A DNA stretch of 64,000 nt, taken from a candidate division FCPU426 bacterium. GTDB lineage: Bacteria > Oederibacteriota > Muellerivitia > Muellerivitales > Muellerivitaceae. Location: NCBI GenBank assembly GCA_963719085.1, contig CAVRAL010000001.1:1312001-1376000 (forward strand), written 5' to 3'. Position 1 is the stretch's first letter. Every line of letters starts with the position of its first letter. This document shows, piece by piece, positions 21,758-37,538 of the stretch. The notes beneath the pieces were generated by a model. That model saw only the letters and a list, made by a program, of their open reading frames with translations, did not search any database and had not been told where the DNA came from. Position numbers and translations under genes: made by a program.

Positions 21758-21841
21758 GGATTAACACAAAGAGTCTGACCAAAAGTGGTAACTTCAGCCA
21801 GACTCCAATTACCAAATTTCGCCGTAGTTAAAGTTTCGGTC

Positions 21842-22809
21842 TTACTTTCGATTCCCGATTTTGATGTCAACTCCAGATACTTTTACAACCGCCCGCCAAA
21901 GGGCGTCCTGATTTGCGCGGTCATGGAGGTGTTCATGGCGCATGATCTCAATGGGACCCGTCATCTTTTTTGGAGGCGAGCAAAAGAACTTGCCAGAAAC
22001 ATCGACGCCAAACTTCGAGGCCGCGAGATATCTTTTGGCCCCTTCATCGACGGAATGCGACATTCCAGGAATAAGTTTCGAGATCGGCACAAATACGTTC
22101 TTCATCACAAAACCTAGATTGCGAGGCGCCTGGGTATCTGGAGCGGCTCCGGGTGAAACTGCGTATACGGCCATGTCCGCAGGAAGCTTTCGAGCAAGGG
22201 CCGCGACCCACCACGCGACAAATATTTTAGCATCAGAGTAAGCCGTGTAGGCTTGTATTTTACATTCGGGGAGCTGCGCAAAATCGCTTCTATGGCTGAA
22301 ACCCGGTCGCCTTTGTACTCTTTCGCGGCGAATGCCGCCAAGTCGGTAAATTGAAACATGGGTACATCACCTCGTGCAGGTTCCGCACCGGCAATAACGA
22401 TACGAGCATCCGGCGCCAGAAGTCCGGCCCCTAAAAGTCCCATCGTTAACTGGTGATGGCCGATCAACGGCGCTTGCGAAGCCTCAATGTTCTCGCTTGT
22501 CACAACACGTTCTTTGCCTGGCATCATACCGGCATTAAGAAGGAGAAAATCTATGGGTTCGCCTCCCTCTCCCTTAACTAGCTCGGCGACCGCCTTCTTC
22601 ACGCTTGCAAACGAATCTAGGTCGAGGGCAAGACCAGCGATATTTTTCGTTCCGGCATCGGTCCTTAATCCTCTAACGGCTTCATCCACTTTGGCCTGGC
22701 TGCGTCCAGTGACTATAACCTGACTCCAACCATCCATGGCAAGCTGCTTGGCTGCCGAGTATCCTAAACCAGACGTAGCGCCGGTAACGAGTGCAACAGC
22801 CTTTTTCAT
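21842..22809 (-). pseudogene. Frameshifted SDR oxidoreductase
   Basis: TGATSGLG N-half; catalytic YSDAK and VYAVSPG continue in a shifted frame after ~22247. Confidence 0.8.
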
Positions 22810-22856
22810 AGTTTGTCTCCCAAATCCAACATTGAAGAAATTTCAAAAGCCCATTA

Positions 22857-22918
22857 CTGTAGTACACGCTACAGATTTACGCATCCGCCGTCAAGCGATA
22901 TTGTTGTGGTCGCTACAA
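22857..22918. promoter_or_regulatory. Two putative TetR operators (TGTAG...CGCTACA-like)
   Basis: ctgtagtacacgctacag (22857-22874) and ttgttgtggtcgctacaa (22901-22918) in the divergent promoter. Confidence 0.55.
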
Positions 22919-22957
22919 ATGGATTGTTTAATGAGTTTCGCGTGGGTAAAATAAGGC

Positions 22958-23545
22958 ATGAGTCGAAAAATAGAATTTAATTACGATAAGGCGTTGGATC
23001 AAGCGATGCGAGTTTTCTGGGGTGAGGGGTACTCCGGCGCATCCTTAAGAGACCTTCTCAAGGCGATGAAAATTGGAGAAGGCTCCTTCTACAATACCGT
23101 CAAAAGCAAAAAGCAACTCTACCTCGAATGCTTGAATCGATATGGAGCGGTCGAAGGCAATAAAAGAATTTTGGCTCTAACATCAGCCCCGAATGCGCGT
23201 CTCGGACTGCGGGCTATGCTAAGCGCAATGTTCGATTGTCTCGATGATCCGAAGAACCCCTCATCTCTTTGCATGATCGCGGCAATGATTTCCAATGATG
23301 TAATGGCTGATAGCGAATTAAAGAAAATGGCTATTGCCCATGTCAAACAAGCAAAAAAGTTAATTGAAGATAAGCTCCATGAGGACAAAAAAGCTGGGCG
23401 TCTTCCAAAAAGCTATGACTCACATACAGTCGCTGATGTCATAGTTACTTATTTCCAAGGCATTTGGCGCATGGCCATGATTTCATACCAACGGGAACAG
23501 TTCGAGCGTGAATCAGAGGCATTTCTTCAAGGACTGGGCCTTTAG
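22958..23545 (+). CDS. TetR/AcrR-family regulator
   Basis: ALDQAMRVFW..GY..ASLRDL...GSFYN...SKKQLY HTH. Confidence 0.92.
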   Translation: MSRKIEFNYDKALDQAMRVFWGEGYSGASLRDLLKAMKIGEGSFYNTVKSKKQLYLECLNRYGAVEGNKRILALTSAPNARLGLRAMLSAMFDCLDDPKNPSSLCMIAAMISNDVMADSELKKMAIAHVKQAKKLIEDKLHEDKKAGRLPKSYDSHTVADVIVTYFQGIWRMAMISYQREQFERESEAFLQGLGL

Positions 23546-23644
23546 TTTTAAAATTCCTGAGTCACACGGATACTCCAACATCCAAGTCATCGACACTTCG
23601 CCGGAAATGAAACAAGAAAATTAATTTTCAAAGGTCTTTTTTCT

Positions 23645-23672
23645 TGTCCACGACGGGTCCCCGTCGCGGGCA
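23645..23672. repeat. 28-bp palindrome, copy 2
   Basis: tgtccacgacgggtccccgtcgcgggca. Confidence 0.85.
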
Positions 23673-23712
23673 GCCAAACAATGGCTAAATAATAAGCCGC
23701 TACCTTCAGAAA

Positions 23713-24930
23713 TTATTCTTGGCCGAATGTTGTTTGATATGCGGGGGAATGAATGATTTGCCGAAATTGTGTATCAGCCTCAACTTTGGCCCTGTTTCCA
23801 GGATCCATTCCGTAAAGTATTTTTAAATCACTTATCGCGCTTGCCGCGTCTCCGGCCGCCCAGTCGGCAAGCGCCAAGTTATATCGGCTCATGTCATTCC
23901 CGGGGTCAAATTGGATTGAGGTTGAGAGAGCCCGGATAGCCTGACCGATTTGATGAACTCTATAGAAGGAATACCCCATCAAACCGTAAGCCTCACTATT
24001 TTTCGAGTCAACCTGAACGGCTTCCTGATATTTCCGGATCGCCGGAAAGAACTTGCCTTTCAAATAATAATCTTTTCCGGCTTTAATAAATTTTTCCAAT
24101 TCCCCGTTTTGATCAATTTCCTGCGCGCCCCAACGATCGAACTTATTATCCGAATGTCCGCTCGTTAGAACATAATCTTTACGGGTATCGAGCTTATAAA
24201 AGTGCAATTGGCGGTCAACATAATCCATCCAGCAACCCTCCACCCACAGAACCCACTGTTTGTCCGGGGTTAGATCAAAATTGATGCCATCACCAATATG
24301 GGTCAAGGTTTTTTTCTCAGGATCAAAACTGTAATAGTTCCAATTGCGGCCATTCGAGGGACCACCCGAAACCGCGATAAACGCCAAATCCCGATTGGGG
24401 TCCCAAAATAAAAAATGCCACCAATCCTCGTCAGATTCGAAGGACTCACCGTCAAACGAGGGCATTTTGACCCGCCAGATCGCGCCTGTTTCATTATTGG
24501 CCAGGATCATTTCGGGGTCATTATATTGATTCGGGCCAATGGCCCACGACCCGGTCGGGGATACGGATTCAATATCTAAATCATACTCAGGGACCGAAGT
24601 CGCCCTTTTCATATTAATCTGCATCATTCCATCCGCGTCAAGTTCATCGCCCGAGGCACTTTGAATGGTGCCATTCGTGGTCAATCGGCATGGTTTAAAG
24701 TAACTTTTCCCTTTAAGTCGGTAGACCCGACGCCAAAAATAAAACGTGGGGAACAAAGGCTTGTCCATCGCTATATCCCCTCCGGCCACAAGTAAAACTT
24801 GCGCGGCCACTGGAGTCGCATTGAGTATCAAAGTGGGTGTTGCGGCAGGGATATCCTTATTGTTGAAGGAATCAGCAAAAGTGTTATTGGCGCAGATGAA
24901 CGCCAAGAAAAAAATCCAAAAGAATTTCAT
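23713..24930 (-). CDS. Secreted protein with beta-rich middle and C-terminal TPRs
   Basis: Signal peptide MKFFWIFFLAF...TFA; TPR pattern (AIRKYQEAVQVD, AYGLMGYSFY, YNLA). Confidence 0.8.
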   Translation of the reverse strand: MKFFWIFFLAFICANNTFADSFNNKDIPAATPTLILNATPVAAQVLLVAGGDIAMDKPLFPTFYFWRRVYRLKGKSYFKPCRLTTNGTIQSASGDELDADGMMQINMKRATSVPEYDLDIESVSPTGSWAIGPNQYNDPEMILANNETGAIWRVKMPSFDGESFESDEDWWHFLFWDPNRDLAFIAVSGGPSNGRNWNYYSFDPEKKTLTHIGDGINFDLTPDKQWVLWVEGCWMDYVDRQLHFYKLDTRKDYVLTSGHSDNKFDRWGAQEIDQNGELEKFIKAGKDYYLKGKFFPAIRKYQEAVQVDSKNSEAYGLMGYSFYRVHQIGQAIRALSTSIQFDPGNDMSRYNLALADWAAGDAASAISDLKILYGMDPGNRAKVEADTQFRQIIHSPAYQTTFGQE

Positions 24931-25004
24931 ATAAGAACCCTTCTTCAACGACTTCTTAAAGTCTCTCGATAAAAAGCGGGATCAAACTTACCCCAACTTT
25001 TCCC

Positions 25005-25032
25005 TGTCCACCACAGGTCCCCGTCGTGGACA
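25005..25032. repeat. 28-bp palindrome, copy 3
   Basis: tgtccaccacaggtccccgtcgtggaca. Confidence 0.85.
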
Positions 25033-25045
25033 GATCTGGAAAATC

Positions 25046-25336
25046 TTAATGCGCGTTAGAAGGCTTCTTTTTTCCAGCGACACTCAATAAGGCTTCGTTG
25101 ATGACTGTTTGGTATCCAATCCCCTTCTCACGGCCTATTTTCTTGGCCCATTCCAAGGCTTTCGGGTTGAGGCGGATGGAAACCGGAAAATAAAGCTCAT
25201 GAGGCGCTTTAGGCGGTCGACCACGCGGACGGCGCGGTTTTCCGGTGTGATGTTCGATTGCCCGACGGTTCTTCTCCACTTCTCCGGGAGTTAACCTCCG
25301 TGCTTTGTGAAACGGGAATTCATTTGAGCTCTTCAT
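25046..25336 (-). CDS. brnA: BrnA-family antitoxin
   Basis: GRPPK...VSIRL...GYQTVINEAL; overlaps toxin. Confidence 0.85.
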   Translation of the reverse strand: MKSSNEFPFHKARRLTPGEVEKNRRAIEHHTGKPRRPRGRPPKAPHELYFPVSIRLNPKALEWAKKIGREKGIGYQTVINEALLSVAGKKKPSNAH

Positions 25337-25601
25337 AACGGGTCCTTTCCCGACGGCTTGCCGGCCTCGCGCTGATGACGCGACAGACCTGGCCTTGTGA
25401 GCGCTTGGTGAAAACTACCACCAGAACTTTTCCACCATCAGATTCTCCAATTAACCATTCCCTGGACTCCGTGGTCGAATGCTTAGGGTCGGCGGCCACT
25501 AGGGCATATGGATCATCAAAGGCCGAGATAGCTGCTTTGAAAGAAACACCGTGTTTCTTGAAATTAGCTTCGTCCTTGGCGGCGTTCCAGTCAAATCGCA
25601 T
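25320..25601 (-). CDS. brnT: BrnT-family toxin
   Basis: FDWN..K...N.KKHGVSF, RVISARPA..RER..Y. Confidence 0.92.
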   Translation of the reverse strand: MRFDWNAAKDEANFKKHGVSFKAAISAFDDPYALVAADPKHSTTESREWLIGESDGGKVLVVVFTKRSQGQVCRVISARPASRRERTRYEELK

Positions 25602-25681
25602 GTTATTAGTATATACTGTAAATGGGGGGTAGTCAAGATTGGGCTTACCAGCATCAGACCATCCCGCTTAGGGTTTTTAGC

Positions 25682-25709
25682 TGTCCACGACAAGAACTCG
25701 TCATGGACA
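25682..25709. repeat. 28-bp palindrome, copy 4 (probably inverted)
   Basis: tgtccacgacaagaactcgtcatggaca. Confidence 0.8.
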
Positions 25710-25983
25710 AGCGCCGACTTTCCGCTTAGAAGGGGGCTCAACGTACTGCGCCCATAGGCCGCGAACAGGGACAGGACCACGGGGATCAGCCCTCTATGCA
25801 AAATGATAACCGTCGGCCACAAGCCAATTCCTTTAACTCATTTTTTGAAAATTGGCTAAGATTGCCGTATCGCGCGTTGATATCGACCATTCATTTTGGC
25901 AAATGAAAAAGAGGTCGGTTCACGCCCAATTCTCGTAACCACCTTATGGAGAATTGGGATGCCTCGCAATGACAAATTCTGAA

Positions 25984-28900
25984 TCAAGCCGTTGTAGGCT
26001 GTGGTTCTTGCGCCTTAGAAGCGGCCTTTTGCATCTTCAATTTCTTCACCGAGAAACGGGACACGGCGTTCTTCGTAATGCTCTTGGCCGACAGCTTATA
26101 TAAATATTCCCCTTCGGCTTTGCCCGTGGCGTCCCAAACGCTGACGGCGTAGGCGCCGCCTTCCCGGCGTTCCTCGATCTTGTCGATCAATCCCCCGGTG
26201 GAATCAAACACTTCCAAGGTGACCTGGCAGTCTTCCTTCAAGAAATAATAAAAGCGGATCGGACCGGGAACTGGCGGGATGGGGAAAAAGCCCATGTCTT
26301 CCACGAATAAATGCGCCTTGCCGTTTTCTTCCGGCTCGAGGGCGATATCTTTCAAACGTAAGACCGGGAATTGGTCGCTGTGCAGGCGGATTTCGTATTT
26401 GCCTTCGGGCATGTTGGAAAAGTAAAAGGCTCCCTTCACATCGGTCACCGCCGTGGCCACCACCTGGTCATTCTTGGCCAGCTCAATTTTGGTTCCTGAA
26501 ACCGGGGTGGCGGCGTCTTTTCGGAAAAAGCGGCCGTTCAATTGGCTGAGTTTGCGGATGATGATCTTTCGATGGGCGGTGAGGGGCGCGGGTTTGCCCT
26601 TGGCATCCACCGCGGCCACATGGAAATACCAGGTGCCTTCGGGGATGTCTTTTAACTCAATGTTGCTTTCCGAGGTGAACACGTCATCGGCGGTGAGCTT
26701 GTCATCTTCCTGACGGCTGAGCTTGTAGATATAGCCAATCGCCTCATATTTGACGTCGGTGTTCGAGCGCAAATGAAAGATCGGGTTAAAAATCGGCGTC
26801 GCTTCGTCTTCTTTGGGATGGGTGGGACTTTCCACCAAAGGCGGTGGAATTTGACTGCCCGCGACCCGCACCGCCAAATGATTGGGGTCCGAGACATTCC
26901 CGGCCCCGTCCCGGCAAACCACATGCAGGTACCAGGTGCCCGGCTCGCCGGCTAAGGCCGTAAAGCCCGATTCAGTGGTGCGGACGACGGTGGAAAGGTC
27001 GGGGATCGTTTTGGCCGATCGGTCGAATACGTAGTAAAAGGCCTCGAACCCTGAAAGTTTCGGGCGGGGCGCCAATTGGAAATAAACCTTGCTGGCCTGA
27101 TACCAACGGCTCTCATCGGGGTGGCTGGTGGAAACGACTTCCGGCGGCGCCGGCCGTTCCAGGTCCACCTTCATACGGTAATGGGCCGGTTCGCTGAAAT
27201 TGCCCGCCCGGTCCCGGGCGACCAAATGGAAATACCAAATCCCGCTCTTGAGATTGCTTAAAGACGCCCGCAATTCTTCCGTGCCCGTGGCCTTGCCGGG
27301 CTCGGGCTTGGTCGTGGGATGCTCATCCAACAAATGGTAATAACCCGCGATGCCGGTGGCGTCCGAGGGGGCTTTCCAAATTAAAAGCGGCGCGGCGTTG
27401 GTGCTCCATTGATCCGGCGGATGGGTGGGGCTGGTAATTTCGGGGGCGTCCACGCCGTGGTCCGACAGGGCCGCGGCGGTTTGGTTGTCCTCGTGCTGTT
27501 CATTGCCCATCTTATCCACGGCCTGGGCGCAGTAATAATAGGCGGTGTTTTCGCGAAGGCCCGTTCCCTTGTCCATGAAACCCGGTTCCTTCACTTCCCC
27601 GTCGATGGAGATTTTTTGCTTTTTCTCGCCCTCGACCCAGCGGTAAACCCGGTAATAGGCGGTGCCCGAAACCCGGTCATTGACCGGATCCCACTTGAGC
27701 TCGATATCCCCATGGGGTCGCGACAAGGCCTTGAGGCTGACCACCGGCGGGGGGGGTGAAATATCCAGCGTCACGCTGGCCATCTCCACCGACGGGAAAG
27801 GTTCCACGTTGCCCACCTTGTCCTTGGCCCGGCAGCGGAAAGCGAAGCGCTGGCCGTCTTGGCCCTGGTAGCTGGCGCCCCTTTCATAAGTGTCCACCAG
27901 CCAATCGGTCCAAGCGCCGTTGGGGCCCGCCTTCACTTGCACATCAAAACAAGCCACGTCGCTTCCGGCGTCCACGGCTTCCCAGGTCACCGGGATTTGG
28001 GTGCGATCGAGGAATAAGGGCAAGGGATTGAGTTTTGATTTCGGCGCCGTAGTATCGATAAAGACCGGGTAATGGGCGGCTTCCCGGCTGAGATTGCCCA
28101 CCTTGTCTTTGGTAGTGATGTGGAAATACCATTTGCCGTCTTTGAGCGCGGGCGCCTGGAACTGGTTGGCCTTGACCCATTGGCCGTTTTCAGGCGTGGG
28201 GATGGTTCCCGGATGGCCGTCGATTAAAAGGTAATAACCGTCAACGCCCGATAGCTCGGCCGGGTCTTCCCAGGTGAATTGCGGAGTCTGGCTTTTCACC
28301 CAGTGATGGGCCGGATGGGTGGCGCTTTTCACCAGCGGCGGCTTGGCGGAAGAATCGACTTGGATTTTAAGACGCCCCGCCTCGCCAAAGTTGCCCGCCT
28401 TGTCCTTGGCCGACACATGGGCGTACCAAACCCCGTCGTCGGGCAGTGTAAAAACCGTATGGGTTCCGGTGATCCAGGTCATTTTTTCCGCCAGCGGTTT
28501 CCAATGCTCTTCGGAATTCACGGCGAAGTAATAGCCTTCGATACCGGATAGATCGACGGGTTCTTTCCAGAATAACTCCACCCGCCGGGCGACCATCCAG
28601 CCTTCGGGATTGGGATGCGTGGGAGACGTCAAAACCGGCGCGGCCACATGGGTATCGACCTTGATCCGGTACCGGGCCGGTTCAGGCGAGGTGTTGCCCG
28701 CGGCGTCCTGACAGATGACGGACAGGATATGGATGCCATCCCGGGGAACGTCGATTTCCAGATCCGTGGATTCTAAAAAGGCCGAGCTTTTGGGATCGGG
28801 CGTTACCTTTTCATCTTCCGAGAAGGTGTAGTAATAACCGGTGATCCCCGAAGGATCCGCCGGGGGATGGAACTTGAACTGGGCCTTGGATTTCGAAACC

Positions 28901-31572
28901 CAGTGCTTCTCGTCCGGATGCGACGAGGAGGTGATCTGGGGCTTGTCGGCGTGGGTATCCACCCGCAGGGCGTAGTGGGCGGCCTTGTGGTCGATATTGC
29001 CGGCCTTGTCTTTGGTGGCCACGTGAAAGTACCACTGGCCGTCCCCCGCGATTTCCAAGGTGAGCGTCCTTTTATCGGTGAAGGTGCCGGTCTTGTCATT
29101 GGGCACGCTGTCGTTTTTTTGGTTCAGCGTATAGAAATAACCTTCCACGCCCGAATCATCCAACGGGTCTTCCCAGTGAAGCGTCACTTTTTTCTCGGCG
29201 TACCAGCGCTGGGGTTCCGGATGGGTGGGGGATGAGACCAAAGGCGGCTGGGCCTTGGTATCCACGCAGACTTTGTAATGGGCGGCCTGGTTGGAAAGAT
29301 TCCCGGCCTTATCTTTGGTGCGAACGTGCAAGAACCACTGGCCGTCCTCGATGTCGGGCACGGTAAAGCTGGTTTTGGTCGTCCATTCGGAAGTTTCCGG
29401 ATGCGGCAAGGTGGAAGGGTCTTGGTCCACCGTAAAGTAATAGCCGTCCACACCCGATAACTCTCGCGGCTCCGCCAGCTCGATCTGCATGTCCTTCGCC
29501 TTATACCACTCCCCTTCTTTGGGGTGGGTGGAGGAGCTGATTCCCGGCGGCAAGGCCTTGGTGTCGATCCGGATGGCGAAATGCGCCGCGTTGGGGCCTA
29601 AGTTCCCCGCCTTATCCTGGGTGGACACATGGACGTACCAAAGGCCGTCTTCCAAGGGGCCCAGCGTCTGGCGGTTGGACTCCGTAAAATCACCCGCGGT
29701 CAATCCCGGAACCGTTCCCGGCTCGTGGTCGACCTTCACGAAATAACCCTTCACGCCCGAAAGATCTTCCGGCGCTTCCCAGGCCACCACGGGTGTGGGA
29801 TTGGGCGTCCAGACTTCGGATTTTTTGTGGGTTTCGCTTCCTAGATGGAGCGGCGGCAGGGCTTCGGTGTCGATCTGCGCCTTATAGTGGGTGGCTTCCG
29901 TGCCGATATTCCCCGCCTCATCCACGCCCGCCACGTGAAAATACCAAACGCCTTGGGAAGCCACCGGCAGCACCAAACGGCGCTCCGGGGTGTAAATGGC
30001 GTCCGGTGGAACGGGAAGGGTTTCGGGATAACGGTTTAATTTGTAGTAAAAACCGGCCAGGGGCACCGGAGCCTGGAGCTCGATTTCAATTTGATTCTTT
30101 TTTTGCCATTCCCCCTGTTTGGGGTGGCTGGGAGAGACGACCTTGGGCGGCAAGGCGGGTTTGGTTTTAAAAAAATCTTGCGACGCCGATTCCCGGGAAG
30201 AAGAGCGAAAAGCGCTCACGACCCGGTAGGCATACTGGGTATCGGCTTTTAAATTGGTGAGGCGGACCTTGTGGCTTAAAACCGGGGCCTTGTCGAGAAC
30301 CGCTAAGGAATAATCCGGCGCGCCCCCATCACCTTCAGGGACGATGCCGTAATAAACCTCCGAAGTGGCCGGAATATCGGTTTCCCAAGTCAGGGTCGCG
30401 CGGCAAGAAGTCAGGTCTTCCAGCTTCACGTCTTTCACTTCGGGCATTCGGGCCATATCAAAAGTGGAGCGCAATAAACTGCCGCCATTTTCGGTGCAGG
30501 CGTAAAGATAATCCCCGAACAAGGCGAAGGACCGAACCCCTTCCACATCGCCCGCGAAAGCCGTGGTCCAGTTTTGGCCGTCTTGGGATTTGAGGATGCG
30601 GCCCGAATTGCCGGTTCCGGCGAAAAGGGTATTCTCGAAAACTTCCAGTCCGTAGATATTTAATTCCCGGGCGCTCTCATAAACCCGCTCCCAATCCTTG
30701 CCGTTCTCCGTGCGGTAAAGCGTAATGCCCTTGCCGCCGGAAGCCCCGGCGTAAAGAAAACCGTTAAATTCCTTGAAGGACTGGATGAAATTTTGGCCGG
30801 TGGCCGAGCATTCTTCCCAGTGAACGCCGTCCTCGGTGGAAAAGAGAATGCCGCTGGGGTAGGTGCCCGCGTAAAGTTTTCCTTTAAAGACGCCCATGGC
30901 CGTGACCGCCACTTCGCTGAGCGAAGCCAAATGGTTCCATTGGGTGCCGTCAAAAGCGTAGACCCGGCCTTCGGAGCTGGTGCCGGCGTAAAGGCGGTTT
31001 TTGAATTCGCATAGGGCGTGGACCCGGTCCTCGCCGGTGGAAAAGGCATCCTTCCAAGTTTCCCCATCGGCGCTTTGGTAAATGGCTCCGTTGAGATTGG
31101 TTCCGGCGAAAAGGGAAACTTCCTTGCCCGGGGGGGCGTAGGTCGCCAGGCAATAAATTTGGGTGACATAGTCCCCTTCGCCCTCAGAGCCCGGCTGGGG
31201 ATTAAAAAATTTGGAGTTGCTGTTGGTGACGACATGGGCTTTCCAGGAGCCCGGCGCGCCGCTGCCGGACAAAAGCACCTTATCCCGGTTGGTGGCGGCC
31301 ACCAGCTTGCCCTTATATTCTAAAAGATCGTAAAAAATCGGGATTTCGGGAAAAGACTCGCTGGAAGAGAAAAAAGCCGGGGCCGCCGAGGCGAAATAAA
31401 GGTCGATGGCGTTCTTCAGTTTTTCCAGGGCGTCCTTGGCGTTTTTGCCCTGGGCCTGACAGCCGGGCAAAAGCGGGCAGCGGGCCACCACTTGGCCATG
31501 GGCCCGGGTTTCCAATTCCACCGGGAAATCGTAAGGAAAGGTCTTTTGGGCTGGGTGCTTTTCTTTTTTCAA
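25984..31572 (-). CDS. Giant multidomain protein: HicB-like domain, beta-propeller, FN3, ten SxTHP Ig-like repeats, carboxypeptidase-regulatory-like domain, FlgD-Ig-like C-terminus
   Basis: VARCPLLPGCQAQGKNAKDALEKLKNAIDLYF; LYAGT blades; repeated S.THP..W...GYY...DG.WYFHV..DKAGN units; TTG start. Confidence 0.85.
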   Translation of the reverse strand: MKKEKHPAQKTFPYDFPVELETRAHGQVVARCPLLPGCQAQGKNAKDALEKLKNAIDLYFASAAPAFFSSSESFPEIPIFYDLLEYKGKLVAATNRDKVLLSGSGAPGSWKAHVVTNSNSKFFNPQPGSEGEGDYVTQIYCLATYAPPGKEVSLFAGTNLNGAIYQSADGETWKDAFSTGEDRVHALCEFKNRLYAGTSSEGRVYAFDGTQWNHLASLSEVAVTAMGVFKGKLYAGTYPSGILFSTEDGVHWEECSATGQNFIQSFKEFNGFLYAGASGGKGITLYRTENGKDWERVYESARELNIYGLEVFENTLFAGTGNSGRILKSQDGQNWTTAFAGDVEGVRSFALFGDYLYACTENGGSLLRSTFDMARMPEVKDVKLEDLTSCRATLTWETDIPATSEVYYGIVPEGDGGAPDYSLAVLDKAPVLSHKVRLTNLKADTQYAYRVVSAFRSSSRESASQDFFKTKPALPPKVVSPSHPKQGEWQKKNQIEIELQAPVPLAGFYYKLNRYPETLPVPPDAIYTPERRLVLPVASQGVWYFHVAGVDEAGNIGTEATHYKAQIDTEALPPLHLGSETHKKSEVWTPNPTPVVAWEAPEDLSGVKGYFVKVDHEPGTVPGLTAGDFTESNRQTLGPLEDGLWYVHVSTQDKAGNLGPNAAHFAIRIDTKALPPGISSSTHPKEGEWYKAKDMQIELAEPRELSGVDGYYFTVDQDPSTLPHPETSEWTTKTSFTVPDIEDGQWFLHVRTKDKAGNLSNQAAHYKVCVDTKAQPPLVSSPTHPEPQRWYAEKKVTLHWEDPLDDSGVEGYFYTLNQKNDSVPNDKTGTFTDKRTLTLEIAGDGQWYFHVATKDKAGNIDHKAAHYALRVDTHADKPQITSSSHPDEKHWVSKSKAQFKFHPPADPSGITGYYYTFSEDEKVTPDPKSSAFLESTDLEIDVPRDGIHILSVICQDAAGNTSPEPARYRIKVDTHVAAPVLTSPTHPNPEGWMVARRVELFWKEPVDLSGIEGYYFAVNSEEHWKPLAEKMTWITGTHTVFTLPDDGVWYAHVSAKDKAGNFGEAGRLKIQVDSSAKPPLVKSATHPAHHWVKSQTPQFTWEDPAELSGVDGYYLLIDGHPGTIPTPENGQWVKANQFQAPALKDGKWYFHITTKDKVGNLSREAAHYPVFIDTTAPKSKLNPLPLFLDRTQIPVTWEAVDAGSDVACFDVQVKAGPNGAWTDWLVDTYERGASYQGQDGQRFAFRCRAKDKVGNVEPFPSVEMASVTLDISPPPPVVSLKALSRPHGDIELKWDPVNDRVSGTAYYRVYRWVEGEKKQKISIDGEVKEPGFMDKGTGLRENTAYYYCAQAVDKMGNEQHEDNQTAAALSDHGVDAPEITSPTHPPDQWSTNAAPLLIWKAPSDATGIAGYYHLLDEHPTTKPEPGKATGTEELRASLSNLKSGIWYFHLVARDRAGNFSEPAHYRMKVDLERPAPPEVVSTSHPDESRWYQASKVYFQLAPRPKLSGFEAFYYVFDRSAKTIPDLSTVVRTTESGFTALAGEPGTWYLHVVCRDGAGNVSDPNHLAVRVAGSQIPPPLVESPTHPKEDEATPIFNPIFHLRSNTDVKYEAIGYIYKLSRQEDDKLTADDVFTSESNIELKDIPEGTWYFHVAAVDAKGKPAPLTAHRKIIIRKLSQLNGRFFRKDAATPVSGTKIELAKNDQVVATAVTDVKGAFYFSNMPEGKYEIRLHSDQFPVLRLKDIALEPEENGKAHLFVEDMGFFPIPPVPGPIRFYYFLKEDCQVTLEVFDSTGGLIDKIEERREGGAYAVSVWDATGKAEGEYLYKLSAKSITKNAVSRFSVKKLKMQKAASKAQEPQPTTA

Positions 31573-31661
31573 TCGCCGTTCCGCAAGTGGGGTCAGCCCG
31601 GGAAGAAGAGCCGGGGAGGGCTATTTTAAACAAACCCAGGCCAAAACCGAAGTAAAACCAT

Positions 31662-31741
31662 TTCACCGCCAAGACGCCCCGCCAGCCTATTTCAGGCTAA
31701 CCACCGCTGGACAGTGCCGCCCTTGGGCTTGGGCGGTGAAA
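31662..31741. repeat. Intergenic inverted-repeat element (ACCGCCAAGACGCC family)
   Basis: ttcaccgccaagacgcc ... cttgggcttgggcggtgaa. Confidence 0.6.
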
Positions 31742-31791: not shown

Positions 31792-33705
31792 TTACCGCAA
31801 GAGGACGATTTTGGCCTCGCGGATCCGCAAGGGTTCGGTCTCGTAAAGGATATAAACACCGCTGGCGCAGTTTTGCTTGAGGTAGTTTTGGCCGTACCAG
31901 AGATAAGAATGAAAAGTGCCGTCCGAAGGCTCTCCCATCCCCAAATCAACGATAAATTCCCCCGCGGAGTTATAAATTTTCAAGCCGTGCTGGCCGGCGA
32001 TCGGGTAACTGACATAGATCGAAACCGGGTCGGAGCCCGAGGTGATCACGTTTTTCGAGATATAAAAGTCCTCCGGCCCCGGAGTGTCGGTGATGGTCGG
32101 CGTCAGGGTGATGGTGGGGGTGAAGGTCACGGTAGGCGTCGGAGTGATCGTGGGGGTCCAGCTAGGGGTGAAGCTCGGCGTGGGCGTCAAGGACACCGTC
32201 GGGGTCGGCGTCTGGGTCGGAGTCCGGCTGAAAGTGGCGGTCAAGGTCGGTGTCTTCGTGATGGTCACTGTGAAGGTCAAAGTCTCGGTCGGGGTGTTCG
32301 TGATCGTTCGGGTGGGGGTGGGGGTCAAGGTCGCGCTGGGTGTCAGGGTCAAGGTCGGTGTTTTTGTATCAGTCCTGGTGCTCGTCGGCGACGGGGTTGA
32401 AGTGACCGTCGCTGTAAAGACCGGGGTCTGGGTGAGGGTCGGGGTGCGCGTGGAGGTCGCCGTCAGGGTACTGGTGATGGTTTGCGTCAAAGTGGGGGTC
32501 AAAGTCCCCGTCAGGGTCTGGGTGGGGGTCGGCGTGCGGCTGGCGGTGACGGTCGGGGTCGGCGTCACGGTAAAGGTGAAAGTCCTCGTGGGTGAAAGCG
32601 TGGGAGTCGCGGTTGGGGTGGCGCCGCAGGCCGCGCCGGTGCAATCCGACACCAAATTGGCGCAAAGTTTGAATTGGCCCCCGCCATAGTTGGGATTAAT
32701 ATCATCCACCGTAAAGGTGATGGTATTGGCGCCGCACTGAAACAGCGCCGGTGAAATAACCGTGTTCGGGCCGCTCGCGCAGACCGCGTTCCCGATATTA
32801 CTGCATTGGACCGCCGCCGCCCCGTTGACCGAAACCGCCATTTGGTCGTCCATGCCATAACATAAGTTGAAAGTCGAGGCCGCGATGTCCACGCCCGGCG
32901 GGATCATCAAAGTCCGGGTATCCGTGAAAACGCTTCCCCCGACCCCGCCATCGTAACCGCCCGCCGTCAGAGCGAACCAAGTGGTGCCACAGGAATCGTT
33001 GAATCGACCTGGAACCGAAGCCGTCAGAAAAAGACCCGGGGTATCCCCCCCATCCCCGCTGCTCAGGCAGGTCGTGACCGTGGCGGGAACACAAGCCGGC
33101 GGAGGCGTCGGCGTGAGCGTCGGAGTCGGGGTAACCCCGCCGCCGCAAACCGCGCCGGTACAATCCGACACCAAATTGGCGCAAAACCTAAACTCACCGC
33201 CATAGGAAGCCGGCGCCGTATCATGCACCGTGAAGGCGATCGTATTGGTCCCACATTGGAACAAACTGGGCGACAGGATGGTATTGGGTCCGGTCCCGCA
33301 AATGCCGCCGCCGGAGTTAGTGCATTGAACCGCCGCCGCCCCATTCACCGTCACCGCCATTTGGTCGTCCATGCCGTAGCACAAATTGAAGGTCGAGGCC
33401 GCGATGTCCACGCCCGGCGAGATAAAAAGGAACCGGGTATCCGTAAAACTCTTGCCGGCTACGCCACCGTCCGTCGTGTCGATGCTGGCGGACACCCAAG
33501 TGGCCGAGCAGGAATCCACCCACCCATGGTCGGAAGGAACGGGAAAGGTGTAGAGGCCGGGCGTGTCCCCCCCGTCCCCGCTGGAAAAACAAGCCGTGGC
33601 CGTCGTCGGGGCGCATTGGGCGAAGGCGTTTTCCGCCGTGCCCCAAACCACGGTTAACAATGCGGCCCAAAATAAATTCATTCGTTTTTTTCGTCCCAAA
33701 CCCAT
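31792..33705 (-). CDS. Secreted protein with two Cys-rich beta domains, long Thr-Pro linker and FlgD-Ig-like tail
   Basis: Signal peptide ending AFA-Q; (TPT)n linker; KIYNSAGEFI...W.G.N...ASGVY tail; start may be 33681. Confidence 0.8.
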   Translation of the reverse strand: MGLGRKKRMNLFWAALLTVVWGTAENAFAQCAPTTATACFSSGDGGDTPGLYTFPVPSDHGWVDSCSATWVSASIDTTDGGVAGKSFTDTRFLFISPGVDIAASTFNLCYGMDDQMAVTVNGAAAVQCTNSGGGICGTGPNTILSPSLFQCGTNTIAFTVHDTAPASYGGEFRFCANLVSDCTGAVCGGGVTPTPTLTPTPPPACVPATVTTCLSSGDGGDTPGLFLTASVPGRFNDSCGTTWFALTAGGYDGGVGGSVFTDTRTLMIPPGVDIAASTFNLCYGMDDQMAVSVNGAAAVQCSNIGNAVCASGPNTVISPALFQCGANTITFTVDDINPNYGGGQFKLCANLVSDCTGAACGATPTATPTLSPTRTFTFTVTPTPTVTASRTPTPTQTLTGTLTPTLTQTITSTLTATSTRTPTLTQTPVFTATVTSTPSPTSTRTDTKTPTLTLTPSATLTPTPTRTITNTPTETLTFTVTITKTPTLTATFSRTPTQTPTPTVSLTPTPSFTPSWTPTITPTPTVTFTPTITLTPTITDTPGPEDFYISKNVITSGSDPVSIYVSYPIAGQHGLKIYNSAGEFIVDLGMGEPSDGTFHSYLWYGQNYLKQNCASGVYILYETEPLRIREAKIVLLR

Positions 33706-34665
33706 ACCTCGAAAAGCAAATAAGCGGCGGTTAACAAAAATCAAAACGGCCCAAACGCGGACCCTCAAGGGATAACTAGAAGTTTCCCCCGAGCGAGCGC
33801 CTTTTGGCCGCCGACGACCACGTAATAATAGATTCCCGGCGAAACAAGAACCCCGCCGTGGTTTTTTCCATTCCACTCGGTGGGATCCCCCGCCGGGCTG
33901 AGGGTGTTTACCCATTCCCCGGAAACCGTATAGACCGAAAATTGGGCGTTGTACTCGGGCAAACAACTGATTTTGAGCGATTGGCCCTGGGCGAATTGCG
34001 GGCTAAAGGGAACGGGCCAAACATGGATCTGGCAAGGCGGCGTGGCGGTGGGGCTGGGCGTGGGGCTTAAAGTAAGCGTGGGAGAGGGTGTCACCGTCAA
34101 AGTGGGGGTAATGGTCGGCGTCAAACTGGGAGTGGGGGTGAAGGTCGGACTGGGAGTCATTGTTAAGGAAGGCGTAGGGGTAACCCCGCCGCCACAAACC
34201 GCGCCGGTGCAACCCGACACCAAATTGGCGCAAAACCTAAACTCACCGCCATAGGAAGCCGGCGCCGTATCGTGCACCGTGAAGGCGATCGTATTGGTCC
34301 CACATTGGAACAAGCTGGGCGACAGGATAGTGTTGGGCCCGGTCCCGCAAATACCGCCTCCGGAGTTAGTGCATTGAACCGCCGCCGCCCCATTGACCGT
34401 CACCGCCATTTGGTCATCCATGCCGTAGCACAAATTGAAGGTCGAGGCCGCGATATCCACGCCCGCCGGGATGAACAGCGTCCGGGTATCCGTGAAGCTC
34501 TTCCCGGCCACGCCCCCGTCCGTCGTATCGATGCTGGCGGACACCCAGGTGGCCGAGCAGGAATCCACCCACCCATGGAGGGCGGGATTGGAAAAAGTAT
34601 AAAGACCCGGCGTATCCCCCCCATCCCCGCTGGTTAGGCAAGTCGTGACCGTGGTCGGCACGCAG
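32617..34665. repeat. Three copies of a ~480-bp Cys-rich domain, shared across two genes
   Basis: ~34177-34665 nearly identical to ~33128-33620; more diverged copy ~32617-33095. Confidence 0.85.
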
Positions 34666-37538
34666 GCGGGAGTGGGAGTCGGCGTGGCTGTCGCGGTGAG
34701 GGCGGCGCAAGTATAGGCCTGAAAATTGGCGGCGCGCACCACGTTCGGCTGGTAAACATTAAAGGTTCGAATGCCTACCCCTCCCGAGGCATAAGGAGCC
34801 AAGTTTGTTCCGGGATCGCTGATATTGCTGAATATCTGCTGGTCCCCGCTTCCAAAATTCACGTAGGCGTTGAACAGGCTCCCGGTCACCACCACTTTTA
34901 AATGCACCCAAGTCCCCGGCACATAAGCGGGAGTGTAAACAAATGAGCCTAAATAACTGTAACCAAATCCGCCGGTCGCGGTTTGCTTTTCAATCTCCCA
35001 ATTGGTGGAGTTCCATTGAAAGATATAGGCTTGACCAACGGCTGTTTGCCGAAACACCAGTCCGAACAAGCCTCCGGCCTGATCCATTTCAAAATCTCCT
35101 TCCACCGTATAATCGCTGTTGGTCTGGCTGAAGAGGGCGTTGTTGACGGATAAATAACCGCCGTTGGCGTCGCTGGATCCGGCGGGCGGGTTCTCCACCA
35201 GCTCAGGGGCGCCGCCCGTCACCGTGAATCCCATGGCGGCGGCGGAAGAGGGGTCCCAATGCTCATCCGTGAAAGTGTAATTCGAAAGACTGCCGCTATT
35301 CGCGAAACCATCCGAGAAGGATTGGCCCGGCCCGCAATTCACGGTTGAAACGGGCGTTGGCACACTGTTCGGAAAGGATAACTTCGCCGCCCAGGCGGTG
35401 TGGGTGCCGGGAGCGCTGGTTTGATAAGCTCCGGAGGTCGTCGGAAAGTTGGAGGAATAGGTATCACCGGCCAAGTAAACATTCCCCGACGTGTCCAAGG
35501 CCAAACCATAACCGCCATCGGCGCTACTGCCGCCAAAATAAGTCGAGTAAAGCAATCCACTCCCCGCCGGGTTGAACTCGGACACGAACGCGTGGGTAGA
35601 ACCGATCCCCGGATCCGCCGGCTGATAGGCCCCGGCGGTCGTGGGAAAGTTGGACGAACTCGTGTATCCCGTCACATAGGCGTCCCCCGCCGAATCTACC
35701 TGGATTCCAAAAGCCAGATCATCGTTATTCCCGCCCAAATAAGTGGAATAGACCAAACCCCCGGTTGAATTCAGTTTTGTGAGAAAAGCGTTGCCGTTAC
35801 CGGCCAAGGCGGTTTGATAAGCCCCGGCCGTCGTGGGAAAATTCGTCGAAGAGGTAGAACCCACTACATAAAGGTTCCCGCCCGCGTCGACGGCGACCTT
35901 ATAACCGACCTCACTGGAAATTCCACCCAGATAGGTGGAATAGACCAGGGCCGATCCCGTTGAATTCAGCTTCACCACAAAAGCGTCCTGGAGGCCGATC
36001 AAGCCGGATTGTAAGGCCCCCCCGGTGGTTGGAAAATCACTTGAGGTCGTATAACCCGTCACATAGGCGTTTCCCGACGCGTCCACGGCGATTCCATAGC
36101 CCCAATCGTTTCCGCTTCCACCCAGATAGGTCGAATAAACCAACGCGCTTCCGGCCGGATTCAACTCCGCGACAAAGGCGTCTCCCGTGCCGCTGGAGCT
36201 TGTTTGAAAAGCTCCCGCGGTGGTGGGAAACGTCCCGAGCGCGGCCTGGCCTGTCACAAAAGCGTCGCCGGCGGAGTCCACATCAATTCCGTAACCGCCC
36301 GTCGTGAGGCTTCCGCCCAAATAAGTCGAATAAATAAACGCGGTCCCGCCGGGGTTCAGCTTGACCACAAAGGCCGACGAGGAACCCAATCGAGTCGTTT
36401 GGAAAGCCCCCGCGGTGTAGGGAAAATTGATCGAAAAAGTGTACCCTGTCACATAGGCGTCCCCCGCCGAATCCACCTTAATATTCTGCCCCTCATCCGC
36501 GCTGGTTCCCCCAAAAAAAGTCGAATAAACCAACGCGCTCCCCGCGGGATTGAACTTCGAAACGAAGACATCGGTGTTCCCGCCCAAAAGAGTTTGCACG
36601 GCGCCGGCGGTTGTCGGAAAATTAGTCGAGGCGGTCCAACCCGTCACATAGGCGCTCCCGGCGCCGTCGACCGCGATCGAGTAGGCGAAATCCCCGCCGC
36701 TGCCTCCCAGGTAGGTGGAATAAACCAAGGTGGGATCAATGACCAAGGGAGCGCTTTTGTCGTAGGCCCCCAACGAAAACCCAATCTCATCCCGGCCTAT
36801 CCCAACAAACTTCCCCGCGACGAAAACCTTCCTTGTCCCCCCGCCTTGGTAAACCACCGGTTTTTGAAAAACCAGCGGGCCCGCTTTCGTCTCCAAAGCG
36901 AGGTTTCCTTGGGGGTCGATCCGGACTTTTCGGGCGCCCTGAAACTTGAGCCGAATCTCTTTCGGGTCGGCTCCCGGCTTCAGTTGGAAATCATATTCCA
37001 GGCGCCCCTGGTTCCCGTAATACACCATGTCGATACCGGGATACACTTCCCGGGCGCTGACCCGCCCGAAGTTCCCCACCCCCCGGCGCCAGTTTTCGGG
37101 ATCATTGCCGATTAAATAATTGGATTTACTTTTTAACGGGTCCAAACCCTCCAACGAGCACAAACGATTGCCGCCCATCAGCCTCATCCGAACCACCTGG
37201 CTGACGCTGTTCCCAGGTTTGGAAGAGGCTCCGTGAACAGCCAGTACGGCCTCCGCCGGGGTTAGGAAAAGCGAATAGCCGCTCCCGCGGGACAGAAACC
37301 GGACTTGGGAGTCGGTTTGACCCTGATTCTTCTCAAATCGCAGGGGCAAATTGCCATAGACCTTTTGGAGTTTCTTTTCGGAGGCCGGATCAAGCGCCGG
37401 GGCGGACGCCGTTAAATGGGTCCAGGCGTTGGAAACCACAACGGGCTGGATAAAAAAAAGGAAAAGGGCCGGGAGCATAAGCCAGCGAAAACGATTTGAG
37501 GAACGGTTTAAAATGTAAGCCAGCCGGTCAAAAGACAT
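33765..37538 (-). CDS. Secreted SBBP beta-propeller repeat protein with lectin-like, Cys-rich and FlgD-Ig-like domains
   Basis: FEKNQGQ, EVYPGID, LVIDP.LVYSTYLGG; repeated IAVD.AG.AYVTG.T.S.NFPTT.GA units. Confidence 0.9.
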   Translation of the reverse strand: MSFDRLAYILNRSSNRFRWLMLPALFLFFIQPVVVSNAWTHLTASAPALDPASEKKLQKVYGNLPLRFEKNQGQTDSQVRFLSRGSGYSLFLTPAEAVLAVHGASSKPGNSVSQVVRMRLMGGNRLCSLEGLDPLKSKSNYLIGNDPENWRRGVGNFGRVSAREVYPGIDMVYYGNQGRLEYDFQLKPGADPKEIRLKFQGARKVRIDPQGNLALETKAGPLVFQKPVVYQGGGTRKVFVAGKFVGIGRDEIGFSLGAYDKSAPLVIDPTLVYSTYLGGSGGDFAYSIAVDGAGSAYVTGWTASTNFPTTAGAVQTLLGGNTDVFVSKFNPAGSALVYSTFFGGTSADEGQNIKVDSAGDAYVTGYTFSINFPYTAGAFQTTRLGSSSAFVVKLNPGGTAFIYSTYLGGSLTTGGYGIDVDSAGDAFVTGQAALGTFPTTAGAFQTSSSGTGDAFVAELNPAGSALVYSTYLGGSGNDWGYGIAVDASGNAYVTGYTTSSDFPTTGGALQSGLIGLQDAFVVKLNSTGSALVYSTYLGGISSEVGYKVAVDAGGNLYVVGSTSSTNFPTTAGAYQTALAGNGNAFLTKLNSTGGLVYSTYLGGNNDDLAFGIQVDSAGDAYVTGYTSSSNFPTTAGAYQPADPGIGSTHAFVSEFNPAGSGLLYSTYFGGSSADGGYGLALDTSGNVYLAGDTYSSNFPTTSGAYQTSAPGTHTAWAAKLSFPNSVPTPVSTVNCGPGQSFSDGFANSGSLSNYTFTDEHWDPSSAAAMGFTVTGGAPELVENPPAGSSDANGGYLSVNNALFSQTNSDYTVEGDFEMDQAGGLFGLVFRQTAVGQAYIFQWNSTNWEIEKQTATGGFGYSYLGSFVYTPAYVPGTWVHLKVVVTGSLFNAYVNFGSGDQQIFSNISDPGTNLAPYASGGVGIRTFNVYQPNVVRAANFQAYTCAALTATATPTPTPACVPTTVTTCLTSGDGGDTPGLYTFSNPALHGWVDSCSATWVSASIDTTDGGVAGKSFTDTRTLFIPAGVDIAASTFNLCYGMDDQMAVTVNGAAAVQCTNSGGGICGTGPNTILSPSLFQCGTNTIAFTVHDTAPASYGGEFRFCANLVSGCTGAVCGGGVTPTPSLTMTPSPTFTPTPSLTPTITPTLTVTPSPTLTLSPTPSPTATPPCQIHVWPVPFSPQFAQGQSLKISCLPEYNAQFSVYTVSGEWVNTLSPAGDPTEWNGKNHGGVLVSPGIYYYVVVGGQKALARGKLLVIP

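What the first reader, a model, noticed from the sequence alone, without database searches (positions are those of the whole stretch)
25984..31572. HicB-type antitoxin domain fused to a 1862-aa beta-propeller/Ig-repeat giant with no signal peptide
Seen: residues ~13-60 (YDFPVELETRAHGQVVARCPLLPGCQAQGKNAKDALEKLKNAIDLYF; ~31393-31536) follow the HicB N-terminal pattern. They continue in frame into a beta-propeller, FN3 domains, ten S-x-(T/S)-H-P...W...DKAGN-type Ig-like repeats, a carboxypeptidase-regulatory-like domain and an FlgD-Ig-like tail. There is no hydrophobic leader, although both upstream neighbours with similar tails have one. No hicA is visible in the window. Known: HicB antitoxins are small proteins that bind HicA RNases. 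Inference: this may be a cytoplasmic sensor or scaffold that holds a HicA-like toxin until the propeller or Ig array binds a trigger, or a HicB fold reused as an oligomerisation or export tag. Composition is host-like, so it is not obviously a recent accident.
Basis: partly seen in the sequence, partly recalled or inferred. Interest (0 to 1): 0.82.

Follow-up and report, generated by a model that had tools for sequence, protein, structure and literature searches.

The report
Giant leaderless fibre protein, HicB-fold cap
A 1862-residue rod-like protein that is conserved in an unnamed group of uncultured bacteria really does begin with a small domain borrowed from HicB antitoxins instead of an export signal, but nothing suggests it still works as an antitoxin and its real role is unknown.

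Summary
ORF 25984-31572 (-) encodes 1862 aa with no hydrophobic stretch. Residues ~13-62 are a HicB/UPF0150-type beta-beta-beta-helix domain, running in frame into a beta-propeller, FN3 domains, ten divergent OmpL47/Big_13-type repeats, a CarboxypepD_reg-like domain and a beta-sandwich tail. The direct Pfam score is sub-threshold (18.5 bits). Homology is instead carried by an exhaustive phmmer search, a PHROG profile, profile-profile alignment and Foldseek.

The fusion is no artefact. At least 46 other protein clusters share the architecture; none has a leader, and most are 1845-1882 aa. The closest relative sits directly beside mutS.

The antitoxin or "HicA-holding sensor" reading has no support:
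- no hicA in the window;
- no DNA-binding domain;
- no defence-library hit;
- a vertically inherited, lineage-core gene.

My best reading is that the HicB fold was exapted as the N-terminal cap of the propeller head of a fixed-length fibre, acting as a docking or retention module. Whether and how the protein leaves the cytoplasm is unresolved: it has no Sec signal, no RTX repeats, and only a sub-threshold T9SS-like tail. It is a new domain architecture of known parts, and moderately interesting.

The parts
25984..31572 (-). Whole gene, 1862 aa (206 kDa, pI 5.65), TTG start
   Evidence: An in-frame TAG lies at 31623-31621. The start aligns with the M/L/V-KKDDKIQKK starts of 46 relatives.
31573..31660 (-). 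Conserved 5' region of about 90 nt (own promoter or leader RNA, contains TTGTTTAAAATA and a CCCGG/CCGGG hairpin)
   Evidence: This stretch aligns with L001 even though L001 has a different upstream gene. No Rfam family matches it.
31387..31536 (-). HicB/UPF0150-fold domain, residues 13-62 (three strands, L-P-G-C...G turn, long helix); basic (pI 9.0 for residues 1-66)
   Evidence: P36 and G42 are invariant in the family.
31339..31386 (-). Short conserved connector, residues 63-78 (A-x-P-A-x-F-E-x-x-E-x-F). Strand 68-73 forms only when the propeller is present in the model
   Evidence: versus 32
30457..31338 (-). Beta-propeller head, residues 79-372 (Ycf48/BNR/DUF6242-like)
   Evidence: pLDDT mostly above 90; propeller hits; Ycf48 5ojr TM 0.70; DUF6242, 30.8 bits
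30163..30438 (-). FN3 domain, residues 379-470
   Evidence: fn3, E=4.8e-11
28033..30135 (-). Repeats 1-7 of about 100 aa (S-x-T-H-P...W...D-K-A-G-N), residues 480-1180
   Evidence: Big_13 107 bits. OmpL47-type NF047446 83 bits.
27433..28032 (-). Two FN3-like domains, residues 1181-1380
   Evidence: (the FN3 part of phrog_31, residues 1191-1362)
26548..27432 (-). Repeats 8-10, residues 1381-1675
26323..26514 (-). CarboxypepD_reg / prealbumin-like domain, residues 1687-1750
   Evidence: 28.6 bits, below cutoff. 21 of 25 family members match at E<=0.01.
26047..26280 (-). Conserved C-terminal beta-sandwich tail, residues 1765-1842 (weakly FlgD_ig / T9SS-CTD-like), followed by a variable K/Q/P-rich end
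   Evidence: (0.71 pairwise identity, the highest of all segments)

Best explanation
This is one member of a conserved, vertically inherited family of giant leaderless fibre-type proteins in an unnamed uncultured bacterial lineage. A HicB/UPF0150-fold domain has been exapted as the N-terminal cap of the beta-propeller head. It no longer serves as a toxin-antitoxin component.

Anatomy (shown):
- a conserved head: basic HicB-fold domain, a 16-residue connector, then the propeller;
- a stalk of about 14 divergent beta-sandwich domains whose number is fixed in most relatives;
- a conserved C-terminal beta-sandwich tail.

Mechanism (inferred). The stalk is a rigid spacer of set length. The two conserved ends do the work. 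In HicAB the HicB fold clamps a small partner protein, and in HicB3 it joins dimers into tetramers. Here it would act as a protein-docking or retention surface of the head.

The domain types, and the leaders on other proteins with a related propeller, argue for a life outside the cytoplasm. With no Sec, Tat or lipoprotein signal, export would have to be Sec-independent. If it runs C-terminus first, the quickly folding HicB-plus-propeller head would be the part that stays behind, as in the retention modules of type I secreted adhesins. This last step is an analogy, not a finding.
For: Homology of the cap.

Conserved fusion:
- 46 of the 93 hits to residues 1-380 carry the same N-terminal motif.
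- 0 of 47 (window included) have a hydrophobic leader. The maximum Kyte-Doolittle 12-residue window is 1.66.
- 26 of the 47 other hits, which share only the propeller, do have a leader.

Conserved ends, variable stalk. Pairwise identity in 31 orthologues is 0.67 for the HicB-like domain, 0.67 for the propeller, 0.71 for the tail and 0.50-0.62 for the repeats.

Fixed length. 34 of 47 members are 1845-1882 aa, including members only 36-40% identical. The repeats within the protein are only 32% identical on average.

Core-gene behaviour:
- Host-like GC.
- In L001 the gene lies directly downstream of a mutS that is 91% identical to the window's.
- Seven family members and MutS relatives share the same 'longest contig' length.

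Not a TA or defence part:
- no HicA in 115 ORFs;
- no DNA-binding domain;
- no PADLOC hit.

That the HicB N-domain binds HicA, and joins dimers in YpHicB3, comes from passages read in PMC11594946. The retention-domain principle comes from passages read in PMC12077191.
Against: - Localisation is not shown by anything here.
- No secretion genes (ABC/MFP/TolC, T9SS) lie in the window.
- No RTX nonapeptides: 0 of 46 relatives, and none in the window protein.
- The tail is only sub-threshold T9SS-CTD/FlgD_ig-like. It was found on no other kind of protein: the 21 shorter hits are all fragments of the family. It therefore does not look like a shared sorting signal.
- Direct Pfam support for HicB is weak: 18.5 bits, and 2 of 25 at E<=0.01.
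- phmmer of the 80 residues against PDB sequences found nothing at E<=1.
- All Foldseek E-values are above 0.001.
- The small HicB-like set used was chosen by similarity to the query, so those two results are partly circular.
- Genomic context could be inspected for one relative only (L001).
Confidence: 0.5

Rival explanations
1. Giant antitoxin or sensor. The HicB-like cap sequesters a HicA-type RNase encoded elsewhere and releases it when the propeller or Ig array meets a trigger.
For: The cap is homologous to the HicA-binding domain of HicB (passages of PMC11594946). The protein has no export signal, so a cytoplasmic location is possible.
Against: - No hicA among 115 ORFs of the window.
- In L001 the neighbours are mutS and about 330 nt of non-coding DNA.
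- No PADLOC hit.
- The gene is a core, syntenic, host-composition gene.
- FN3, Big_13, OmpL47-type and CarboxypepD_reg domains are typical of surface proteins.
- Many stand-alone UPF0150 proteins have no known toxin partner (my own knowledge, not from a call).
Confidence: 0.1
2. Oligomerisation tag. The HicB-fold cap joins two or more fibres head to head, as the N-domains do in the YpHicB3 tetramer.
For: Passage in PMC11594946 on N-domain contacts in HicB3 and BpsHicB tetramers. The cap is as conserved as the propeller.
Against: No direct evidence. The cap is tied to the propeller by a short conserved connector, so part of its surface may be buried.
Confidence: 0.15
3. Nucleic-acid or polyanion binder. 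The basic cap binds RNA, DNA or acidic envelope polymers and so tethers the fibre. Its fold class is the partial RNase H / dsRBD-like one.
For: Residues 1-66 have pI 9.0, against 4.9-5.6 for the propeller and stalk. After the HicB family, the next Foldseek neighbours are dsRBDs with probability 0.1-0.75. 3kwr is deposited as a 'putative RNA-binding protein'.
Against: The dsRBD matches are weak: E above 0.25, TM 0.26-0.44. No nucleic-acid binding by HicB N-domains is reported in the passages read.
Confidence: 0.1
4. Artefact. The fusion comes from a misassembly, a wrong start, or a lost frameshift that hides a signal peptide. An alternative-frame ORF, 31313-31672 (-), begins with a hydrophobic stretch.
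For: The alternative-frame ORF starts L-A-V-K-W-F-Y-F-G-F-G-L-G-L-F-K-I-A. The start codon is TTG.
Against: - The same junction and start appear in 46 independent clusters from several sources, 35 of 47 listed with M, and none with a leader.
- The HicB segment is under as much constraint as the propeller.
- In L001 the alternative-frame ORF ends at a TGA before the gene start.
- The alternative-frame ORF has no Pfam match.
- The hydrophobic stretch lies in the conserved T-rich 5' region.
Confidence: 0.03

Closest known systems
HicB antitoxin N-terminal domain / UPF0150 (Pfam PF15919, PF21748; PDB 6hpb, 6g1c, 6u0i, 2dsy, 2yzt)
   Same: The same small beta-beta-beta-helix fold with the (L/F)-P-G...G turn and a following helix. 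Support: profile-profile probability 99.5%, all top Foldseek hits, phrog_497.
   Different: No C-terminal RHH/HTH domain. No adjacent hicA. About 13-18 times larger than the HicB chains matched in the PDB (85-142 aa). Sub-threshold Pfam score. Followed by a propeller and a long stalk. A chromosomal core gene rather than a TA cassette.
RTX adhesins exported by type I secretion, with an N-terminal retention module (LapA, MpIBP, AhLap)
   Same: Giant single-chain fibre, no N-terminal signal peptide, a folded N-terminal module, a long run of Ig-like extender domains, and the business parts at the ends (passages of PMC12077191).
   Different: No RTX nonapeptide repeats. No type I secretion genes nearby. 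The C-terminus is a beta-sandwich, not a beta-roll plus helical signal. Extender repeats are divergent and fixed in number. The retention fold is unrelated.
Type IX secretion cargo with a C-terminal sorting domain (Por_Secre_tail PF18962, FlgD_ig PF13860)
   Same: The last about 80 residues form a beta-sandwich with weak matches to these models. At E<=0.01, 10 of 25 members match FlgD_ig and 3 of 25 match Por_Secre_tail.
   Different: All matches are below the Pfam cut-offs. There is no Sec signal peptide, which such cargo needs. The tail was found on no other protein family.
OmpL47-type / Big_13 repeat surface proteins (Leptospira OmpL47)
   Same: The ten repeats pass the NCBIfam domain model NF047446 (83.4 bits, cutoff 40) and Big_13 (107 bits). 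OmpL47 is described as surface-exposed (title and abstract listing of PMC2698987).
   Different: My recollection is that OmpL47 is a much smaller protein with a signal peptide. That is not from a call. It has no HicB cap or propeller head.
Periscope proteins (variable-length stalk proteins)
   Same: A rod of tandem folded domains holding a functional end away from the anchor (abstract listing of PMC9704523 and 10.1101/2020.12.24.424174).
   Different: Periscope stalks are near-identical repeats whose number varies. Here the repeats are 20-47% identical and the length is nearly constant across the family.

Membership tests
HicB antitoxin (type II HicAB) | N-terminal partial RNase H-like domain homologous to PF15919 | tested here: met
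   Homology is shown. The direct Pfam score is below cut-off (18.5 versus 27 bits; 2 of 25 at E<=0.01).
HicB antitoxin (type II HicAB) | C-terminal RHH or HTH DNA-binding domain | tested here: not met
   No such Pfam or NCBIfam match in 1862 aa. The cap is followed by a propeller. The feature is taken from PMC11594946.
HicB antitoxin (type II HicAB) | Adjacent hicA toxin gene | tested here: not met
   No PF07927 match in 115 window ORFs of 40 aa or more. In L001 the flanks are mutS and non-coding DNA. The small ORFs of L001 were not scanned.
HicB antitoxin (type II HicAB) | Binds and neutralises a HicA RNase | not testable with these tools
   No candidate HicA was available in the window.
RTX / type I secreted adhesins | Ca-binding nonapeptide (GGxGxD) beta-roll before a C-terminal signal | tested here: not met
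   0 motifs in the protein and in 0 of 46 relatives.
RTX / type I secreted adhesins | No N-terminal signal peptide, and a folded N-terminal retention module | tested here: inconclusive
   No leader and a folded N-terminal head. A retention function was not tested.
RTX / type I secreted adhesins | Linked ABC transporter, membrane fusion protein and TolC-like genes | tested here: not met
   None among the window's ORFs. The rest of the genome was not seen.
Type IX secretion cargo | C-terminal sorting domain | tested here: inconclusive
   - FlgD_ig: E=0.048.
- T9SS-related NCBIfam models: E=0.0014-0.009 on the tail alone.
- Por_Secre_tail: 24 bits in P0036 and P0039.
- FlgD_ig: 25.6 bits in P0031.
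All are below the cut-offs.
Type IX secretion cargo | N-terminal Sec signal peptide | tested here: not met
   The maximum Kyte-Doolittle 19-residue window is 1.04 over the whole protein. 0 of 47 family members have a leader.
OmpL47-type / Big_13 repeat proteins | Repeat domain passing the curated model | tested here: met
   NF047446: 83.4 bits against a cutoff of 40. PF19077: 107.3 bits against a cutoff of 27. Ten copies.

The most novel reading that the evidence does not exclude
The HicB-fold plus propeller head is the cytoplasm-side stopper or targeting element of a Sec-independent export and anchoring route. That route would place a fixed-length fibre of about 200 kDa on the surface of an unnamed candidate phylum. 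It would be a new way to mount giant surface proteins, built from an exapted antitoxin fold.
Probability: 0.15. Interest if true: 0.8.

Novelty: new variant of a known kind. Interest (0 to 1): 0.45.

Why it matters
The protein shows an antitoxin-type fold recruited into a wholly different setting: the first domain of a giant, length-conserved fibre that is a core gene of an uncultured lineage. If the fibre is extracellular, its export and anchoring cannot follow the Sec-dependent textbook routes, and the HicB cap is the obvious handle for finding out how. If it is cytoplasmic, it would be an unusual intracellular use of surface-type Ig, FN3 and OmpL47 domains.

It is also a caution for annotation. 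One source names several members 'predicted RNase H-like HicB family nuclease'. That name describes 3% of the protein and probably not its function.

Tried and rejected
- Complex prediction, residues 1-380 in two copies with alignment A1. Score 0.21 against a mark of 0.42, so no verdict. It is not used for or against dimerisation.
- phmmer of residues 1-80 against PDB sequences. No hit at E<=1.
- Foldseek of the 1-380 model. Only generic propellers, which says nothing about the cap.
- ESM Atlas on residues 1-380. Only propeller leads with scores of 0.82 or less, the range that chance hits also reach.
- The listing of cluster members for organism names of ten relatives. The database was switched off and the query was not sent.
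- Taxonomy through MutS. All relatives at 62% identity or more are unnamed 'bacterium' records.
- The search for related loci. The context of the other relatives stayed unseen.
- Search for the tail on other, shorter proteins. Only fragments of the family came back.
- Riboswitch search upstream. Nothing but the tRNA.
- Sigma-70 and terminator scan. Nothing above the shuffled controls near the gene start.
- Alternative-frame 'leader' ORF 31313-31672. Rejected; see the artefact rival.
- Phage origin. PHROG hits are to generic Ig/FN3 parts (phrog_11157, phrog_31), and there are no phage genes around the gene.
- Literature. No paper describing this architecture was found, and the phrase 'HicB family nuclease' occurs in none. 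Subscription-only papers were not searched.
Full report
THE GENE

The minus strand carries one ORF from 31572 (TTG) to 25984, 1862 aa. An in-frame TAG lies 51 nt upstream, so the protein cannot start earlier in this frame. The product is 206 kDa with pI 5.65. It has no hydrophobic stretch anywhere: the maximum Kyte-Doolittle 19-residue window is 1.04. GC content is 0.55-0.58, the same as the conserved chromosomal genes of the window. A low-GC tract (0.37-0.48) runs from about 8 kb to 26 kb and ends just downstream of the gene.

IS THE N-TERMINUS A HicB-TYPE DOMAIN?

The direct Pfam evidence is weak.
- Residues 1-70 give PF15919 at E=0.0023 (18.5 bits, cutoff 27) and PF21748 at E=0.0052.
- When 24 full-length relatives and the window fragment were scanned, only 2 of 25 reached PF15919 at E<=0.01, and one of the two is the fragment.
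- phmmer of the 80 residues against PDB sequences found nothing at E<=1.

Four other lines agree with one another.
1. An exhaustive phmmer run of residues 1-80 over 1.84 billion representatives gave 143 hits at E<=1e-3. Apart from the family itself, these are mostly 58-126 aa proteins aligned to residues 16-60 at 40-53% identity. I scanned 63 of the 143, and 56 of 63 are PF15919 at E<=1e-3. The seven exceptions are four family fragments, two low-complexity or TPR proteins, and one unassigned 65-aa protein.
2. phrog_497 'toxin-antitoxin system HicB-like' matches residues 14-61 at E=8.5e-6.
3. A profile of the N-termini of 47 family members aligns to a profile of 45 of those small proteins with probability 99.5%, E=3.6e-22, over 54 columns. 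The small set was picked by similarity to the query, so this result and the PDB profile search are partly circular. That search found HicB 6g1c and 6g1n at about 6e-7, 2yzt at 2.6e-6 and 6hpb at 4.9e-5.
4. The AF2 model of residues 1-80 (pLDDT 77.9) has three strands and a long helix. Its Foldseek ranks 1-16 in the PDB are all HicB antitoxins or TTHA0281, TTHA1756 and 3kwr. TM is about 0.5 and rmsd is 1.2-1.5 A over 41-45 columns for 2dsy and 6g26. E-values are only 0.01-0.24. dsRBDs follow.

P36 and G42 of the L-P-G...G turn are invariant in the family. I take the homology as established at the level of the fold and domain family.

THE REST OF THE PROTEIN

- The AF2 model of residues 1-380 (pLDDT 89, pTM 0.79) shows the cap, a strand at residues 68-73 that forms only in the presence of the propeller, and then a multi-bladed propeller.
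- The propeller's structural neighbours are generic, such as Ycf48 and virginiamycin B lyase.
- An FN3 domain follows.
- Seven repeats of about 100 aa come next, then two FN3-like domains, then three more repeats.
- The repeats pass Big_13 (107 bits) and the NCBIfam OmpL47-type domain model (83 bits, cutoff 40). They are only 20-47% identical to each other.
- A CarboxypepD_reg-like domain scores 28.6 bits, below its cutoff, but 21 of 25 relatives match it.
- The last part is a beta-sandwich tail with weak FlgD_ig and T9SS-CTD resemblance (E=0.048 here). Por_Secre_tail reaches 24 bits and FlgD_ig 25.6 bits in relatives.

The tail assignment is the weakest.

THE FUSION IS REAL AND OLD

A search with residues 1-380 found 93 proteins.
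- 46 of them carry the same N-terminal motif. Identity to the window is 89% down to about 33%, from several sources.
- With the window protein that makes 47. 35 of these are listed with M, 7 with L and 5 with V as first residue.
- None has a leader: the maximum Kyte-Doolittle 12-residue window in the first 70 residues is 1.66 or less.
- 26 of the 47 remaining hits, which share only the propeller, have a clear hydrophobic leader.
- 34 of the 47 family members are 1845-1882 aa long, including members only 36-40% identical. Seven form a subgroup of 2415-2443 aa.
- In 31 orthologues, pairwise identity is 0.67 for the cap, 0.67 for the propeller, 0.71 for the tail and 0.50-0.62 for the repeats.

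A misassembly, a wrong start or a recent accident can be set aside. One relative seems to be split into 1275 + 583 aa on the same contig.

CONTEXT

- In the only close locus I could fetch (L001, 88% identical), the gene lies directly downstream of a mutS that is 91% identical to the window's mutS. It is followed by about 330 nt of non-coding DNA and what looks like the start of a tRNA.
- The window has two extra genes between mutS and the giant, of 1273 aa (DUF7948 + SBBP propeller) and 724 aa. Both have leaders, P/T-rich linkers and weak FlgD_ig or CHU_C-type tails. They are therefore not obligatory partners.
- About 90 nt upstream of the start are conserved between the two loci, although the upstream genes differ. 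This suggests the gene has its own promoter or leader.
- Seven family members and MutS relatives share identical 'longest contig' lengths. This fits linkage but does not prove adjacency.
- MutS relatives at 62% identity or more are all unnamed 'bacterium' records, with a gap down to 55% or less for named candidate phyla.
- A brnT/brnA pair lies 380 nt downstream, inside the low-GC tract, and is absent from L001.
- No HicA_toxin match was found in 115 window ORFs: 8 + 37 + 70, with small ORFs of 40 aa or more taken from the gaps between genes.
- No type I or type IX secretion genes are in the window.
- The giant has no PADLOC hit.

INTERPRETATION

HicB antitoxins are defined by three features, taken from passages of PMC11594946: the N-terminal HicA-binding domain, a C-terminal RHH or HTH domain, and a paired hicA gene. 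Only the first is met here. The protein is therefore not a HicB antitoxin but a carrier of its fold.

Three things point to a fibre whose ends are functional and whose stalk is a spacer of set length:
- strong conservation of the cap;
- its short conserved tether to the propeller;
- the conserved-ends, variable-stalk pattern.

The domain repertoire, and the leaders on propeller-only homologues, favour an extracytoplasmic life. Yet there is no Sec signal, no RTX roll (0 of 46 relatives), and a tail that occurs on no other protein family. The nearest working analogy is the N-terminal retention module of type I secreted adhesins, which folds inside the cell and cannot pass the duct (passages of PMC12077191). 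I hold this as analogy only.

The alternatives are:
- a cytoplasmic HicA-holding sensor;
- an oligomerisation tag;
- a polyanion-binding basic cap, with pI 9.0 against 4.9-5.6 for the propeller and stalk.

NOVELTY

Four literature searches found no description of this architecture. The only existing label is an automatic one, 'predicted RNase H-like HicB family nuclease'. All parts are known; the combination and the leaderless, fixed-length family are new. I rate it a new variant of a known kind and of moderate interest. It would be higher if the export or retention idea proved true.

Noticed in passing
window 25046-25601 (-): A BrnT toxin (25320-25601, PF04365, E=5.9e-25) and BrnA antitoxin (25046-25336, PF14384, E=1e-6) pair lies 380 nt downstream of the giant. 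A sigma-70-like site sits at 25636-25608. The pair lies in the low-GC tract and is absent from L001.
   Followed up: partly
window about 8000-26000: A low-GC tract (0.37-0.48 against 0.55-0.60) that looks like an integrated island with defence-type genes. It carries a tyrosine integrase (9795-10907), an HTH_17 excisionase-like ORF (10900-11106), an HNH_2 / type IV restriction-like gene (14901-15671), a PbeA-like helicase (16476-17639, PADLOC E=4.7e-79), a HATPase_c_3 protein (17649-19238), a type II methyltransferase (19222-20238) and tRNA-Asp (20623-20699).
   Followed up: partly
window 31313-31672 (-): An alternative-frame ORF of 119 aa overlaps the start of the giant and begins with a hydrophobic, leader-like stretch. 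In L001 the matching ORF stops before the gene start. It has no Pfam match. I judge it a by-product of the T-rich conserved 5' region.
   Followed up: yes
window 25823-25839 (-); L001 about 9194-9212 and 9281-9299: The 17-nt motif GAGTTAAAGGRATTGGC occurs just downstream of the giant in both loci, twice in L001. The window has one exact copy, where 0.03 matches (up to 2 mismatches allowed) are expected by chance. Its meaning is unknown.
   Followed up: partly
window 31792-33966 (-) and 33765-37586 (-): Two secreted proteins lie between mutS and the giant. The 724-aa ORF probably starts at an internal ATG near 33681, where a signal peptide begins. Without that correction it would overlap the 1273-aa gene by about 200 nt. 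Both have P/T-rich linkers and weak FlgD_ig or CHU_C tails. Both are missing in L001.
   Followed up: partly
relatives P0022 (1275 aa) and P0371 (583 aa): Both are listed with the same longest contig of 78,713 nt and together add up to 1858 aa. In that genome the gene seems to be split by a frameshift or stop.
   Followed up: no
window 52453-54054 (-): A 533-aa lipoprotein-type BNR/Ycf48-like propeller protein (leader ending in ...L-N-A-T-G-C) with a P/T-rich C-terminus. It is a second propeller surface protein in the window.
   Followed up: no
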